Positions 18,938 to 24,648 of a stretch of DNA of 64,000 bases are shown one piece after another (positions within the stretch are counted from its first letter, which is position 1; every line of letters begins with the position of its first letter). Origin of the DNA: Gemmatimonadales bacterium (GTDB lineage Bacteria > Gemmatimonadota > Gemmatimonadetes > Gemmatimonadales > GWC2-71-9); assembly GCA_038321865.1 (NCBI GenBank), contig JBBQFH010000010.1:35793-99792 (forward strand). Direction: 5' to 3'. Both the position numbers and the translations under genes were made by a program. The notes under the pieces were generated by a model. The model had not been told where the DNA came from. It saw only the letters and a list, made by a program, of their open reading frames with translations, and did no database searches.

Positions 18938-19150
18938 CTACTTGAGCTTGGTCACGTTCTCGGCTGCGGGGCCCTTGGCACCCTGCACGATGTCGAACTC
19001 CACCCGCTCGCCCTCGGCGAGACTGCGGAACCCGTCCGACTTGATGGCGGTGTGGTGGACGAAGCAATCCTTCTCGCCATTCTCCGGAGTGATGAATCCA
19101 AACCCCTTCGCATCATTGAACCACTTCACCGTGCCGATGGTCCGAGCCAT
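18938..19150 (-). CDS. Cold-shock protein
   Basis: [34 protein letters not shown]. Confidence 0.97.
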
Positions 19151-19278
19151 GCTGACTACTCCGCGTTGATTGCCTGCGCCGGCAGCGCCGGACGGCACCT
19201 ACCGAGTTGTTGTGAGCGCAGGCCAGTTTCCCACCCTTCGCCGGTCACGGCCTGCCGCGCAGGCCGAATCGCGGGGTG

Positions 19279-19306
19279 AATATGCAACCGGCACTGGACT
19301 AGTCAA
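19279..19306 (-). promoter_or_regulatory. Probable csp promoter giving a ~120-nt 5' UTR
   Basis: TTGACT-N16-CATATT on the minus strand. Confidence 0.5.
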
Positions 19307-21056
19307 GGGGAGGGGGGAGCTTGAGCCAGCGCGCCGCCGCCCGCGCCCAGTCACCACCGCGAGGGCGCAGTGCCGCGCCGGTTGCGCGGTTGAGCGCCTG
19401 GAGGAATTCTGCGGCGGAGGGGTACCGCTGGTCCATTTCGCTGTTGAGCGCGCGGGCCAGCACTTCCTCGAGCTCGCCCGTTACGTCCTCCCGCAGCTCG
19501 CGGGGAGAGGGAAGCTGGTTGGTCGTCTGTTTCGCCAGCACCTGTTCCGGGGTCGCGCCCTGAAAGGGCGGGTGGCCCAGCAGCGCGAAGTAGGCGACGG
19601 CGGCGAGGCTGTACAGATCGGAGCGCTGGTCCACCCGCTCGCCCAGCAGCTGTTCCGGGCTCGCGAACTGCGGCGTGCCACTCTGGCTCGTGGCGCCCCC
19701 GAACTTCCCGAAGCGCAGCGCGAGCGCGAGGCCGAAATCGGTGATCCGCAGGCGGCCGTCGCCTTCGAGCAGCATGTTCTCCGGCTTGATGTCGCGGTGC
19801 ACCAGGCCGGAAGCGTGCGCGTTAGCCAGGGCGGACAGCGCCTCGCGGAGCAGCCGGAGCACGCGGTCGAGCGGCAGCGGGCCGTCGCGGTCGACGAGCT
19901 GGGCCAGGCTGGGGCCATTGACCAGCTCCATGGTGTACCAGATCAGCCCGGACCGGCCGCCGATGTCGTAGATGCTGACGATGTTGACGTGATTGAGCCG
20001 GGCGGCCAGCTGGGCCTCCCGGCGGAAGCGCTCGACCACCGCCGGATCCTGCGTCAGCTCCGGGTGCAGCACCTTGAGCGCGACTTCGCGCTCGAGGTGA
20101 AGGTCGCGCACACGGTAGACCCGCCCGAAGCCGCCGCTGCCCAGCAGGTCGAGCAGCTCGTAGTCGTCGCCCAGCGCCCGACGCAGGCGCTTTTCCCACC
20201 GCGCCCGGTCTTCGGTGTCGGTATGGCGCGCGGCGGTGCCGATGATGGCCGGCGTCTCGAAGGTCCCGGCGTCGGAGGCGAAGTCCTCGAGCATCTCCAC
20301 CGCAGTGAAGTAGCGGTCGGCCGGGTGCGGGCGGAGCGCCCGGAGCAGGATGCGCTCGATCGTGCGGGGGCAGGTCGGGCGGAGCTCGGACGGCTTGCGG
20401 ACCTCTCGCGGATCGAGCGGCGGCTCCTGTCCGGTGACGGCGAGGTAGAGGATCGTGCCGGCGGTGTAGACATCGCTTGCGGGGTCACCGGTGGCGCCGT
20501 CGCGCACCTCGGGCGCCATGAAGCACTGGCCGCTGGGAACCGTACCGGCCGGGATCGCCGGCAACGTCCAGCTGGAAAATCGGAGATCGGTGACGGTGCC
20601 ACGCCCCGAGGTGCTCAGCAGCAGCGACGCCGGCGCGATCCGCCGGACAATGATGCCGTTGGTATGCGCGTGCTCCAGGGCGCCGAGGAGGTCGCGCGCG
20701 AGGGTATGTACGGTGGGGATCAGCCGCGGGCCGCGCTGAATCGCCTCATGGAGGCCTTCGCCGTCGATCCAGTTGCCGACACGGTAGGCCAGGTCGCCAA
20801 TGATCCCGGCGTCGTAGACGTGCCGGATGGCGGGATGATCGAGGCGGCCGAGCGCTTCCGCTTCGCGGAGAAACCAGCCGCGCAGCGTGTCATCGGGATA
20901 GAAGTGGATGCGGAGCGCGACCCGGCGCCTGAGCGTCTGATCGTAGGCGAGGAACAGCACGCGCTCGCGCGACGCGGCCACCATGCTCTCCAGCCGATAC
21001 CGCTGGCCGAGCGCGGCATCGGCCCGAGCGAAGAACTGGGCGCCGTCCACCGTCAT
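19299..21056 (-). CDS. Cytoplasmic tandem pseudokinase-kinase (Hanks type)
   Basis: C-terminal domain is intact (GSGGFG, VALK, HRDIKPEN, DFG, SPE). N-terminal domain is degenerate (VALR, VRRIAPAS, DLR). Confidence 0.9.
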   Translation of the reverse strand: MTVDGAQFFARADAALGQRYRLESMVAASRERVLFLAYDQTLRRRVALRIHFYPDDTLRGWFLREAEALGRLDHPAIRHVYDAGIIGDLAYRVGNWIDGEGLHEAIQRGPRLIPTVHTLARDLLGALEHAHTNGIIVRRIAPASLLLSTSGRGTVTDLRFSSWTLPAIPAGTVPSGQCFMAPEVRDGATGDPASDVYTAGTILYLAVTGQEPPLDPREVRKPSELRPTCPRTIERILLRALRPHPADRYFTAVEMLEDFASDAGTFETPAIIGTAARHTDTEDRARWEKRLRRALGDDYELLDLLGSGGFGRVYRVRDLHLEREVALKVLHPELTQDPAVVERFRREAQLAARLNHVNIVSIYDIGGRSGLIWYTMELVNGPSLAQLVDRDGPLPLDRVLRLLREALSALANAHASGLVHRDIKPENMLLEGDGRLRITDFGLALALRFGKFGGATSQSGTPQFASPEQLLGERVDQRSDLYSLAAVAYFALLGHPPFQGATPEQVLAKQTTNQLPSPRELREDVTGELEEVLARALNSEMDQRYPSAAEFLQALNRATGAALRPRGGDWARAAARWLKLPPPLD

Positions 21057-21598
21057 CGGAGGAGTCCCCGCCGGCGCTCGGTCCACCCGTCGCGTCCGCA
21101 GGTTTCGCTGTTGCACCAGCGCCGCCCCTGATTGACGGAATCGTCTCCAAGGAAGTGGGAGCACGCGGCGGCCGCGCACTGGCGAACGAACACCAGCGGC
21201 TCCGCCAGCGTCGCCGCTGCCGAGCGGGCCACGGCGGCGAGAGCGGCCGGCGGCTCGGCCGCCGCGAAATCGATCCGCCACTCCCCGCCGATCCGCAACA
21301 GCTGCTGCGACCCCGACTCGGCGCGAAGCTCCTGGTTGATGAGCGACACGGCGGGGGCGGGAGGCCGCTGTCCCGCGTCGAGCGACTCGGCGAGGGCGGT
21401 CAGTGCGTCGCGCAGGCGGCGGACCTCCTCGAAGGGGCGTGTGTCGGCGTCGGAACGCAGCTTGAGGGCCTTGGTCCAGCGGTGGTAGGCGGCGGCGTCA
21501 GGCAGACGATCGGTTGCGGGGGCGGTGCTCCCGCGCGCGGTGTTGATGAAATCGAGCCAGATGGCGTCGCCCAGGAGGGTGAATTCGGGGTCGGACAT
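21053..21598 (-). CDS. ABATE / CGNR zinc-finger protein
   Basis: N-terminal LDFINT; C-terminal CxxxxC...RRWC...CG. Confidence 0.85.
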   Translation of the reverse strand: MSDPEFTLLGDAIWLDFINTARGSTAPATDRLPDAAAYHRWTKALKLRSDADTRPFEEVRRLRDALTALAESLDAGQRPPAPAVSLINQELRAESGSQQLLRIGGEWRIDFAAAEPPAALAAVARSAAATLAEPLVFVRQCAAAACSHFLGDDSVNQGRRWCNSETCGRDGWTERRRGLLR

Positions 21599-21603
21599 GC
21601 GGC

Positions 21604-22941
21604 TCAGCCGTCCGAGACCTCGACCGCGTTGCGCCCCCCGCGCTTCGCCTTGTACAGGGCGGCGTCCGCCGCGGCGAGCAGGCTGCTCACGGTGGTGCCG
21701 TGCCGCGGCGACTCGGCGATCCCCATGCTGATCGTACAGTGGCCGAATTCGGGGTGGGCCTGCTCCAGCTCGCGCAGGCCCTCGAGTACGCGGCTCACGT
21801 AGACCCGCGACTCTTCGGGCCGGGTCATGGGGAGAATGACGAGGAACTCGTCGCCGCCGAGCCGGCCGACCACGTCGAGCGCCCGGCACTGCTGCATCAG
21901 GATGCCGCCGATCTGGACCAGCAGGCGGTCGCCCGCGGCGTGGCCCATGGTGTCGTTGACGATCTTGAACCGGTCCAGGTCGATCAGGAGCACGCTGGTG
22001 TGGAGCTGGTGACGGAGACTGCGCGAGATCTCGGCGCCGAGGCGATCCTCGAGCGCGCGGCGGTTGTAGAGCCCCGTGAGCTCATCGGTGGTGGCCGCGC
22101 TGTGCAGCTGCTCCACCAGTTCCGCGTTCTTGAGCGCGATGGCGGCGGCGAACGAAAGCGTACCGGCGAGCTCCTGCTCGGCCCGCCCGTACGGCTTGTC
22201 GCTGATGCGCGGCCCGAGGACCAGCAGGGCCATCCGCTCCGCGCCGGCGTCGAGCGGTATGATGAGCTGCGCTTCGCGTCCGACCAGCGCCGCGACGGCG
22301 ATGTCGTCCGACCCGGTGGAAGCGCTGCCGGTCGGGAGCGCTTCGTCCAGCGCGGCGCGGTTGATGGACTGGCGCGGCGGCTCATCCTTCATCGAGCGGT
22401 AGATCTTCGGCGTGTAGGCGTCGCCATCCGGACGGAAGATGCAGGCCCACCACGCGAAAAACACCTCGGCCATGAAGTCGAGGATGAGTTGTTCGGTCTC
22501 TTCGGTCGAGTGCACCGATGACAGCAGCCGGGCGACCTGCCGGAGCGCCCGCAGCTGGAAGACGGCGTCGTCCAGCGCCGCCTGGCGCTCCAGCAGAATG
22601 CTGCGCAGCTCGAGCACGACCGTGAGGCCGAGGGCCAGCGGCATCGCCACGCTGCGCATCTCGCCGGCAACGGCGGGCTCGGCATGAATCACGATTTCGG
22701 TCTGGCCGCTCGACAGCCGCGCCACTTCCACCGCCGTATCGAACCCCTCAGGTGGCCCCACGCGCGGTGTGGGTTCATCCGACGTTGATATGACGGAAAA
22801 CCAGATCTGTTCGCTCCGGAACCGGCGCACCAAGGCCGCCCGGCACCGCTCAAACAGCTCGCCGTCGGTCCGGGAGAGCCGGCAGGCGGCGGCGAAGGCG
22901 CTGGGAAGACTGGCTAATGCGGCTGACGGGGACAGACCCAT
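21604..22941 (-). CDS. GAF-GGDEF diguanylate cyclase
   Basis: DELTGLYNRR, DLDRFKIVNDTMGH, intact GGDEF with RALD I-site. Confidence 0.93.
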   Translation of the reverse strand: MGLSPSAALASLPSAFAAACRLSRTDGELFERCRAALVRRFRSEQIWFSVISTSDEPTPRVGPPEGFDTAVEVARLSSGQTEIVIHAEPAVAGEMRSVAMPLALGLTVVLELRSILLERQAALDDAVFQLRALRQVARLLSSVHSTEETEQLILDFMAEVFFAWWACIFRPDGDAYTPKIYRSMKDEPPRQSINRAALDEALPTGSASTGSDDIAVAALVGREAQLIIPLDAGAERMALLVLGPRISDKPYGRAEQELAGTLSFAAAIALKNAELVEQLHSAATTDELTGLYNRRALEDRLGAEISRSLRHQLHTSVLLIDLDRFKIVNDTMGHAAGDRLLVQIGGILMQQCRALDVVGRLGGDEFLVILPMTRPEESRVYVSRVLEGLRELEQAHPEFGHCTISMGIAESPRHGTTVSSLLAAADAALYKAKRGGRNAVEVSDG

Positions 22942-22946
22942 GTCGA

Positions 22947-22952
22947 ATTATA
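22947..22952 (-). promoter_or_regulatory. -10 box (leaderless) of the GGDEF operon
   Basis: TATAAT lies 5 nt before the ATG; no SD sequence. Confidence 0.6.
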
Positions 22953-22989: not shown

Positions 22990-23018
22990 TTGCGCCAGAT
23001 ACGGGGGTGGGCTATTAT
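22990..23018 (+). promoter_or_regulatory. sigma70-type promoter with no downstream + strand CDS
   Basis: TTGCGC-N17-TATTAT. Confidence 0.6.
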
Positions 23019-23023
23019 TCCCG

Positions 23024-23135
23024 CTGATCGAGACATAGCCCTTCGGGGCCCCAGGGATTTCGGCTTTGCGGCCTGGGTGATGAAAACTGCTAAGGCTGCC
23101 TGGTCCCGGCTGAGTTCTTCTCTGCCGGGATTTGT
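23024..23135 (+). ncRNA. Putative novel small RNA
   Basis: Promoter upstream; GCCC-TTCG-GGGC and CCCAGG/CCTGGG stems; terminator TCCCGGC..GCCGGGA plus TTTGTGTATT oriented for the + strand. Confidence 0.5.
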
Positions 23136-23139
23136 GTAT

Positions 23140-24648
23140 TCAGGGCCTGGCCCTGACCGTGATTCGGCCCGGCGCGGGTGCGATCAGCTTCCCGCCAAGG
23201 GAATCGGCGACATGGCGGATCAGCAGGTCGGCCGCCCGCGGTGCCTGCTCCCAGCTGGCGCATGCGGCACGCGCCTCCGGCACCACGTACCCGTCACCGC
23301 CCTCACACGCCGGATATACGTCGAAGGCCACTCTGAGGGTTTCCGTCGCACCGACGATGCGGCCTCCGGTGCGCCGGATATCGCCGACGAGCCGGCTGCC
23401 TCCCGGCCTGGTCGAATCGAACGCGAACGAGATCCCCGAGACCTGCAGGAACGGACCGGCCCCGAGGCTGCCAGGAGCGACTCCATGCTCGAGCAGCTGG
23501 CGGAGCCGCGCACCGGTGAGGGAGAACGTCACGACGCGGGAGTCGTCGGCGAACAGGAAGATCGATTCCAGCAGGTAGTTGCTCACCGGCCCTGGCTTGA
23601 TGACGTCGTCGAGCCGAAGGGTGCCGGCGTTGAGCAGGGCGACATCGGAGCCGGTGCCGGTCCGCATCGCGTCGGTGATCAGGCTGCCAAGGGGAGACTC
23701 GCCGTGGCGGAGCGGGGTGTCGCGGGCGTCGATGGGCGCCGGGGCCGTCGCGACGATGCGTTCAGGCCCCAGCCGGCGCCGCAGGCTGTCCTGCCACGCG
23801 GCGACGATGCGCGCCGTGGTCGTGTCCAGGGGGAATTCGTCGGTGATCCGGATGAGCGTCGGCGCGACACGCCAGTTGCCCTTGGCCCCCCACACCGTGG
23901 TGAACTGCACCGATCGCGAGTTCGCGTCAGCCTTCAGCACGTGCCGCCCGTTGACCAGCTCGTCGTGCGCCTCGTGCTCATGCCCGCCCAGGATGAGATC
24001 GATCGAGGGCTCGCGGCCCAGCAGCGCCTGATCTGCGGCGAGTGTCTGGTGCGTGAGACCGACGATGAGCTGCGCGCCGAGCTTGCCCAGGGTATCGACG
24101 GCGAGATGCGCGGCACTGTCCGGATCGGTGCAGCGCACGTATTTGCGATAGTCGCCGCGGAGCGTGAGCGCGAACAGGCCGAGTTTCCGGCCCTGAATCG
24201 TCAGCGTATCCCACGCCCGCACACCCGGGAATGCTGCCCCGCTCGCCTCGGTGCAATTGCTCGAAATCCACTTGAATTTGGACGCGGCAATCCGGGCGAC
24301 GAGCGTGTCCCGCGGGATCTCGAATTCATGATTGCCGAAGGTCGCGTAATCGAGTCCGGCGGCGTTGAACTCCTCCACCATCTGCCGGCCGCCGTAGTAC
24401 TTGCTGAGGAGGCTCGGGGAGAGCTCGTCACCGGCGAGCACGAGGAGGGTCGGGCCGACCGTGGCCAGTCGACGGCGGAGCGTGGCGACGCGCGCCAGCC
24501 CGCCGCTACCGTCAGCGAGCGTATCGGCGACGTAGACGTCGTTGATGGACAGGAAGCGGATCGGGTTGGTCGGCGGCGGCGCCGGCGGAATTCCCAGGCA
24601 CCCCGACAGCGACACCAGCCCCAACGTCCAGATCAGCCTCCGCTTCAT
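23140..24648 (-). CDS. Lipoprotein 5'-nucleotidase / metallophosphoesterase
   Basis: Lipobox LSGC; SINDVY, AGDELSPS, GNHEFE, GLTH, LGGHEH, NAGTLR. Confidence 0.92.
   Translation of the reverse strand: MKRRLIWTLGLVSLSGCLGIPPAPPPTNPIRFLSINDVYVADTLADGSGGLARVATLRRRLATVGPTLLVLAGDELSPSLLSKYYGGRQMVEEFNAAGLDYATFGNHEFEIPRDTLVARIAASKFKWISSNCTEASGAAFPGVRAWDTLTIQGRKLGLFALTLRGDYRKYVRCTDPDSAAHLAVDTLGKLGAQLIVGLTHQTLAADQALLGREPSIDLILGGHEHEAHDELVNGRHVLKADANSRSVQFTTVWGAKGNWRVAPTLIRITDEFPLDTTTARIVAAWQDSLRRRLGPERIVATAPAPIDARDTPLRHGESPLGSLITDAMRTGTGSDVALLNAGTLRLDDVIKPGPVSNYLLESIFLFADDSRVVTFSLTGARLRQLLEHGVAPGSLGAGPFLQVSGISFAFDSTRPGGSRLVGDIRRTGGRIVGATETLRVAFDVYPACEGGDGYVVPEARAACASWEQAPRAADLLIRHVADSLGGKLIAPAPGRITVRARP

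What the first reader, a model, noticed from the sequence alone, without database searches (positions are those of the whole stretch)
22990..23139. Orphan small RNA gene candidate divergent from the GGDEF/CGNR/pseudokinase-kinase operon
Seen: a sigma70-type promoter (TTGCGC-N17-TATTAT) fires on the + strand where no + strand CDS exists, since both neighbours are on the minus strand. The ~110 nt downstream fold into a C(UUCG)G tetraloop hairpin and a CCCAGG/CCTGGG stem, followed by an A-rich single strand (UGAUGAAAACUGCUAA). It ends in a hairpin whose U-rich tail is on the + strand only. I do not recognise it as tRNA, SRP, 6S or a known riboswitch. Inference: an undescribed sRNA sharing a back-to-back promoter with a c-di-GMP/kinase operon.
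Basis: partly seen in the sequence, partly recalled or inferred. Interest (0 to 1): 0.8.

Follow-up and report, generated by a model that had tools for sequence, protein, structure and literature searches.

The report
SAM riboswitch turned stand-alone small RNA
A group of uncultured environmental bacteria keeps a small RNA gene with its own promoter and stop signal that looks like a SAM-sensing gene switch detached from any gene it could switch, which suggests an old riboswitch has been reused for a new and still unknown job.

Summary
The RNA is real and uncatalogued.

Anatomy, + strand about 23026-23139: near-invariant CAUAG, a small hairpin, stem P1, pseudoknot P2 with a bulged U, then a terminator. 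Covariation supports the fold. The promoter pattern precedes 95 of 134 copies, against 1.9 expected.

It is confined to one subclade of a Gemmatimonadales family. It misses Rfam's SAM-II cut-off (13.4 bits against 36). Yet every SAM-contacting position is present, and these stay fixed in 58-69 of 69 orthologous copies while neighbouring pairs vary. True SAM-II riboswitches are the commonest identifiable next-best hits of its model.

No pocket-intact copy has a downstream gene on its strand (0 of 45; 0 of 23). Pocket-less relatives sit beside many unrelated genes.

Best reading: a SAM-II riboswitch reused as a stand-alone small RNA that still binds SAM in this lineage. Rivals: a ligand-free triplex RNA, or a SAM-controlled antisense switch on the facing queuosine/nucleotidase operon. 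SAM binding, expression and target are untested.

The parts
22990..23018 (+). sigma70-type promoter of the RNA (-35 at 22990-95, -10 at 23013-18); start inferred near 23026
   Evidence: pattern conserved in 95 of 134 copies, 42 of 42 pocket-type; below the scan tool's threshold
23033..23037 (+). near-invariant 5' CAUAG motif
   Evidence: 99-100 of 100 per column. Partly set by the search pattern, but genome-wide model searches gave only single-base variants
23037..23048 (+). hairpin P0 (3-4 bp, variable loop, UUCG here), directly abutting P1; not seen as a conserved feature of true SAM-II riboswitches
   Evidence: 100% of cells paired, 1 double change; comparison with 40 SAM-II leaders
23049..23076 (+). 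stem P1 (23049-54 with 23071-76). Its loop holds L1 G23055, A23056, U23057-59 (SAM-II G8, A9, U10-U12) and the 5' strand of P2 (23060-70, with U20, U21, G22, C23 at 23065-68)
   Evidence: A-U/G-C swap 62:38; Rfam SAM_alpha alignment; pocket counts
23077..23085 (+). A-rich linker UGAUGAAAA (loop 3 of the pseudoknot)
   Evidence: UGA 96-100 of 100
23086..23097 (+). 3' strand of pseudoknot P2 with bulged U23090 (SAM-II U44) and A23091-92 (A45, A46)
   Evidence: 6 of 8 proximal pairs with double changes; 4 of 4; U44 kept in 61 of 69
23103..23139 (+). intrinsic terminator hairpin 23103-29 and U/G tail 23130-39
   Evidence: fold; 7 of 7 pairs with double changes; YGUG in the tail of 53 of 100 copies against 8 of 86 generic tails
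22947..22952 (-). TATAAT 5 nt before the GGDEF start codon; suggests a leaderless mRNA and a divergent promoter
   Evidence: similar arrangement in 27 of 42 pocket-type copies
21604..22941 (-). divergent neighbour: GAF-GGDEF diguanylate cyclase gene
   Evidence: Pfam PF00990, and PF13492 just below its cut-off
23140..24648 (-). convergent neighbour: 5'-nucleotidase gene, last of a queC / radical-SAM (queE-like) / HD / nucleotidase run; its stop abuts the RNA's tail
   Evidence: Pfam. The queE label is my recall; the call gave only a weak Radical_SAM hit beside queC

Best explanation
A copy of the lineage's transcription-terminating SAM-II riboswitch became a stand-alone small RNA gene of about 113 nt. 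It gained a CAUAG-plus-hairpin module at its 5' end and lost any downstream gene. Shown by sequence: promoter, pseudoknot, terminator, position independence, and selection on the SAM pocket in this lineage. Inferred: SAM locks the pseudoknot and triple helix and so stabilises the RNA, as reported for SAM-II-derived sRNAs in S. meliloti. Inferred: the RNA acts in trans through the invariant CAUAG-P0-P1 module, more likely by binding a protein than by base-pairing. Other lineages kept that module and let the pocket decay.
For: (1) The residues named as SAM contacts in PMC3303485 all map onto the RNA. In 69 nucleotidase-adjacent cores: G8 69, A9 59, U10 58, U11 69, U12 66, U20-A46 66, U21-A45 66, G22-C43 67, C23-G42 65, U44 61. 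Pairs 24 and 19-47 swap freely. (2) Model R3, built from 100 copies most of which lack an intact pocket, hits 15 of 31 true SAM-II loci at 13-25 bits. Six of its 12 second-tier genome hits are SAM-II riboswitches. (3) A SAM-II-only model finds this RNA as its sole hit in 64 kb; 13 of 14 hits in 53 loci fall on family cores. (4) True SAM-II leaders share an AC(A/U)(A/U) lead in 39 of 40 and have similar terminators. (5) No co-oriented downstream gene for pocket-intact copies: 41 convergent and 4 unresolved of 45; 20 and 3 of 23. (6) Other copies sit beside many unrelated genes, up to three model hits per genome. 17 copies lie just behind a co-oriented gene with no promoter pattern, so position seems not to matter.
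Against: SAM-II model scores are weak: 13.4 bits against a cut-off of 36, and 7.2 bits, E 2.6. The P1/P2 junction differs from local SAM-II: L1 is one base shorter and an extra G-C pair replaces the closing U-G. On the midpoint-rooted GGDEF tree, intact pockets all lie in one clade (44 rows, 98/95) and the 7 adjacent copies outside it lack the pocket, so gain in that clade is not excluded. U-A-U triples could be kept for stability alone. No RNA target stood out among 3084 predicted gene starts, and no Hfq was found in a 90%-complete genome. RNA-run contigs came from relatives, at depth about 3, and ran past the element.
Confidence: 0.42

Rival explanations
1. A ligand-independent small RNA. 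The pseudoknot and U-A-U triples only stabilise the RNA or shape a protein-binding surface. The SAM-II likeness is a vestige, or convergence of small triplex pseudoknots.
For: 93 of 152 hits lack all three pocket motifs, 4 of them probable chance rows. 82 of 93 cores away from the GGDEF locus have a short loop with only a 4-bp pseudoknot. The invariant part is CAUAG-P0-P1-UGA, not the pocket. Pocket-less copies lie outside the intact clade on a midpoint-rooted tree.
Against: The bulged U44 and U10 have their role in ligand contact and are kept in 61 and 58 of 69. A ligand-free helix would be more stable without the bulge (inference).
Confidence: 0.28
2. A SAM-controlled antisense switch. At low SAM the polymerase reads through the terminator into the convergent nucleotidase-HD-queE-queC operon and damps it by transcriptional interference, as the S-box antisense RNA does for ubiG-mccBA in Clostridium acetobutylicum.
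For: Every resolved pocket-intact copy faces a convergent gene, nearly always the nucleotidase. U44 is kept in 61 of 69 nucleotidase-adjacent cores and 0 of 10 HD-adjacent ones. The operon includes a radical-SAM gene beside queC. Precedent: PMC2566862 (abstract).
Against: The pocket-nucleotidase link is one clade, so one event. No clear antiterminator: the full-length fold keeps the terminator, the candidate GGGA/UCCC pairing does not clearly covary, and the comparison with true SAM-II platforms did not discriminate. It does not explain the invariant 5' module or the copies elsewhere.
Confidence: 0.2
3. A family of cis-acting attenuators or variant riboswitches for other ligands, or a 3'-end stability element. 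The window's copy would be a stranded member.
For: 36 pocket-less hits precede a co-oriented gene, about 12 of them an M50-CBS peptidase, often within 10 nt. 17 lie in 3' UTRs, mostly of cold-shock genes. Variant riboswitches exist, such as the spermidine variant of a SAM aptamer (PMC10853860, search listing only).
Against: At least 48 pocket-less hits face convergent genes, and the co-oriented genes share no pathway. The window's lineage keeps the element under selection with no sense gene downstream.
Confidence: 0.1

Closest known systems
SAM-II riboswitch (Rfam RF00521 SAM_alpha; Corbino et al. 2005, PMC1273637)
   Same: Single stem plus H-type pseudoknot, nearby promoter, downstream terminator; all named pocket residues present; full-length model alignment.
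   Different: Below the gathering score; different P1 sequence; extra CAUAG-P0 module; no downstream Met/SAM gene. The genome has a separate true SAM-II (43.1 bits) before a MetH-like gene.
Riboswitch-derived trans-acting sRNAs: Listeria SreA/SreB (PMC8079631, passages), Desulfovibrio DseA (10.1101/803072, abstract), S. meliloti RZ/RA2 (PMC9373788, passages)
   Same: Terminated SAM-aptamer transcript that acts, or is suspected to act, in trans; RZ/RA2 are SAM-II RNAs stabilised at high SAM.
   Different: Those remain leaders of a downstream gene. This one is a dedicated gene family with none.
S-box antisense switch of C. acetobutylicum ubiG-mccBA (PMC2566862, abstract)
   Same: SAM aptamer with its own promoter, convergent on an operon.
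   Different: S-box (SAM-I) class with a sulfur-metabolism target. Here no antiterminator is shown and most family members are not placed this way.
SAM-V riboswitch (RF01826)
   Same: Related pseudoknot pocket, grouped as SAM-II/V in PMC10907184 (passages).
   Different: No match in the genome at E up to 10.

Membership tests
SAM-II riboswitch (RF00521) | Reaches the Rfam gathering score of 36 bits | tested here: not met
   13.4 bits, E 0.52, model positions 1-79; not among 4 genome hits at E up to 10
SAM-II riboswitch (RF00521) | P1 stem plus H-type pseudoknot P2 supported by covariation | tested here: met
SAM-II riboswitch (RF00521) | Pocket residues U10, U11, U12, U21, G22, unpaired U44, A45, A46 | tested here: met
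   all present in the window; 58-69 of 69 orthologous cores per position; not met in most other subfamilies
SAM-II riboswitch (RF00521) | Lies in the 5' leader of a methionine/SAM gene | tested here: not met
   0 of 45 and 0 of 23 pocket-intact copies have a co-oriented downstream gene
SAM-II riboswitch (RF00521) | Ligand-switchable expression platform | tested here: inconclusive
SAM-II riboswitch (RF00521) | Binds SAM and rejects SAH | not testable with these tools
   needs in-line probing or ITC
SAM-V riboswitch (RF01826) | Match to the covariance model | tested here: not met
Stand-alone trans-acting sRNA | Own promoter and terminator, independent of flanking genes | tested here: met
Stand-alone trans-acting sRNA | Discrete transcript detected | tested here: inconclusive
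   contigs only, from relatives, extending past the element
Stand-alone trans-acting sRNA | mRNA or protein target | tested here: inconclusive
   no outstanding duplex among 3084 predicted gene starts; protein partners not tested
SRP RNA / tmRNA / 6S RNA | Match to the housekeeping RNA models | tested here: not met
   SRP and tmRNA lie elsewhere in the genome; RF00013 finds nothing in it

The most novel reading that the evidence does not exclude
A SAM-II riboswitch was exapted into a dedicated small-RNA gene family that senses SAM and passes the signal in trans through a new 5' module, with the pocket kept in one clade and remodelled or lost in others. This would be a metabolite-binding sRNA that is no longer the leader of any gene.
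Probability: 0.4. Interest if true: 0.85.

Novelty: new variant of a known kind. Interest (0 to 1): 0.72.

Why it matters
The riboswitch-derived sRNAs I found in print are by-products of leaders that still control a gene. Here the aptamer appears to have become its own gene. The family holds a natural series from intact pocket, through U10/U44 variants, to a minimal 4-bp pseudoknot. That makes the riboswitch-to-sRNA transition, and possible changes of ligand, testable in vitro with short RNAs, with no need to culture the hosts. It also adds a conserved RNA to a phylum for which my searches returned no such description.

Tried and rejected
Rfam: C/D snoRNA, miRNA and other sub-threshold hits rest on UGAUGA or the terminator and are chance.

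Small ORF from the AUG at 23079: the AUG is not conserved, since position 23081 is G in only 37 of 100.

Hammerhead or pistol ribozyme (recalled consensus, judged by eye): the required cores and extra stems are not conserved.

Minus-strand 5' leader of the GGDEF gene: the G-U bias favours +, and the GGDEF gene has its own -10 next to the ATG.

Antiterminator search: no clear covariation; the energy comparison was noisy because hairpins were sometimes mis-picked.

Closing helix between CAUAG and the tail: pairing is better than with generic tails (-3.2 against -1.5 kcal/mol) but no better than with other members' tails; unproven.

Per-sequence pseudoknot test: p at most 0.05 in only 63 of 134, because short forms have just 4 bp.

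mRNA target scan: nothing outstanding.

Expression: 24 runs held at most 0.10 of the words. Four were laid; each had one low-depth contig of a relative over the element, not ending at its borders. No evidence either way.

Phage copies: one pattern match in viral contigs, not scored by the model at E up to 0.1.

Rows dropped as chance pattern matches: L127, L152, L178, L186.

Earlier scan notes: none on this sequence or its relatives; six unrelated pseudoknot notes were not used.

Full report
OBSERVATION. The element fills the 198 bases between a divergent GAF-GGDEF gene (21604-22941, minus) and a convergent 5'-nucleotidase gene (23140-24648, minus). Upstream of the latter lie an HD-domain gene, a radical-SAM gene and queC. 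Taken alone the window is unremarkable: the promoter scan finds nothing, fold z-scores are -0.9 to -1.7, and no Rfam family reaches its cut-off.

CONSERVATION AND RANGE. Blastn found the core in 13 of 36 same-family genomes and 0 of 24 from two sister families. Model R1 hit 31 of 61 family genomes. Six of those were weak: two SAM-II-type riboswitches and four noise on inspection. The broader model R3, built from 100 copies, gave a bimodal result. Hits of 47 bits or more occurred in 31 of 72 family genomes and 0 of 79 other genomes of the phylum, and in 18 of 36 in the relatives set. Four of the 120 rows (L127, L152, L178, L186) were dropped as chance. The RNA marks the same subclade as the GGDEF orthologue: 18 of 21 genomes with that gene have it, and 0 of 15 without. 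This may be shared ancestry only. Locus L020 comes from unpublished genome G105 and is one row in these counts; G249 enters only the tally. No claim depends on either.

ANATOMY. From the 100-copy alignment: CAUAG 23033-37; hairpin P0 23037-48; P1 23049-54 with 23071-76; loop 23055-70; linker 23077-85; second strand 23086-97 with a bulged U at 23090; terminator 23103-39. On 14 seed sequences, 96% of cells pair and 8 of 28 pairs change on both sides, 6 of them in the pseudoknot. On 100 copies, 93% pair and 15 of 21 pairs change on both sides, including all 4 proximal pseudoknot pairs, which were not part of the model; 0 of 500 shuffles reach this. Kin are not independent and the nested helices were fitted, so these are not probabilities. 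G-U pairs outnumber C-A 51 to 3, pointing to the + strand. A TTG..16-18..TAnnnT pattern precedes 95 of 134 copies against 1.9 expected, and 42 of 42 pocket-type copies. It is absent in all 17 copies that lie just behind a co-oriented gene, mostly cold-shock genes.

LINK TO SAM-II. The narrow Rfam search aligned SAM_alpha over its full length at 13.4 bits. PMC3303485 (passages) names U10, U11, U12, U21, G22, unpaired U44, A45 and A46 as the pocket, and all map onto the window. In 69 distinct cores with the nucleotidase downstream, these positions are kept in 58 to 69 cases, while pairs 24 and 19-47 swap among A-U, G-C, C-G and G-U. True SAM-II riboswitches exceed the cut-off in 91 of 101 family genomes. 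The genome's own precedes a MetH-like gene. R3 scores 15 of 31 such loci at 13-25 bits, and 6 of its 12 second-tier genome hits are SAM-II; the other 6 have no Rfam match at the cut-off. The reciprocal model R2 is weak but specific: one hit in the 64-kb window, the element, at 7.2 bits and E 2.6, and 13 of 14 hits in 53 loci on family cores. True SAM-II leaders carry AC(A/U)(A/U) before P1 in 39 of 40, which echoes the ACAU lead here, though this may only reflect start-site preference. I put common descent at about 0.8.

AGAINST. Most of the family lacks the pocket: 93 of 152 hits. On a GGDEF tree of 59 partial proteins (midpoint root; rows that were short or duplicated were left out), all 32 intact copies fall in one clade of 44 rows (98/95). 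That clade also holds 7 near-intact and 3 eroded copies. The 7 adjacent copies outside it are eroded; several keep the long P2 with a bulge, usually A. Retention with decay in long-branch lineages fits, but gain in one clade is not excluded.

CONTEXT. Pocket-intact copies never precede a gene on their own strand: 41 convergent and 4 unresolved of 45, and 20 and 3 of 23 in a separate metagenome scan of 111 distinct matches that included chance rows. Pocket-less copies sit beside arginine decarboxylase and M50 peptidase, cold-shock, DEAD-box helicase, lytic transglycosylase, ClpP and other genes: 48 convergent, 36 co-oriented, 9 unresolved. Gene calls came from a simple codon-score script, so some neighbours may be miscalled.

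MECHANISM. Shown: a promoter-driven, terminated, pseudoknotted RNA gene under selection. Inferred: SAM binds the pocket and stabilises the RNA, as SAM-II-derived RZ and RA2 RNAs are stabilised at high SAM in S. meliloti, where the authors leave a trans role open (PMC9373788, passages). Inferred: the output is the invariant CAUAG-P0-P1-UGA module, because it is what all lineages keep wherever the gene sits. A protein partner seems likelier than an mRNA target, since the free strand is short, no target stood out and Hfq was not found. A SAM sink is unlikely on stoichiometry, given 30-200 uM SAM in E. coli (PMC1273637, passages). The antisense alternative has a precedent (PMC2566862, abstract) and fits the convergent layout, but no antiterminator could be shown. 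Expression remains open.

NOVELTY. Nine literature searches listed no paper describing this RNA or an ncRNA motif of Gemmatimonadota. I read listings, plus the passages or abstracts cited above, passages of PMC10907184 and PMC8079631 and the abstract of 10.1101/803072. The one supplementary file held for PMC8632094 had no mention. The supplement of PMC11109978 could not be read and might list the motif; subscription papers are not covered. It is not filed as a SAM-II member, because two defining features fail. It most likely works with a SAM-II fold in a new role.

VERDICT. Real; new variant of a known kind; interest 0.72.

Noticed in passing
window 22941-22952 (minus): The GGDEF gene looks leaderless, with TATAAT 5 nt before the ATG; a similar arrangement occurs in 27 of 42 relatives.
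   Followed up: partly
G000:C4:18455-18528 (L015): True SAM-II riboswitch before a MetH-like gene, with a visible terminator/antiterminator platform. SAM-II exceeds the Rfam cut-off in 91 of 101 genomes of this Gemmatimonadota family.
   Followed up: yes
L060, L071, L073, L075, L079, L081, L093, L096, L112, L118, L122, L126: Pocket-less copies lie 12-41 nt after a cold-shock gene stop with no promoter pattern, so they may be released from its 3' UTR.
   Followed up: partly
L013, L040, L042, L047, L114: Short-loop copies sit between a divergent arginine decarboxylase gene and a co-oriented M50-CBS peptidase gene, several within 10 nt of its start; possible cis role.
   Followed up: partly
L012, L024, L030, L082, L156: Natural pocket variants (U10 to G and/or U44 to A) keep the long P2 and are candidates for altered ligand specificity.
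   Followed up: no
window 19299-21281 (minus): Two-domain Ser/Thr kinase gene downstream of the GGDEF and ABATE/CGNR genes, followed by a cold-shock-type gene at 18938-19198.
   Followed up: no
G000 genome: ARAGORN calls a selenocysteine tRNA. No 6S RNA or Hfq was found by family search in a 90%-complete genome.
   Followed up: no
L258:368-473 (G207, another family of the class): A 29.8-bit R3 hit with a hairpin, stem and terminator but no CAUAG and no Rfam match; distant relative or chance.
   Followed up: partly
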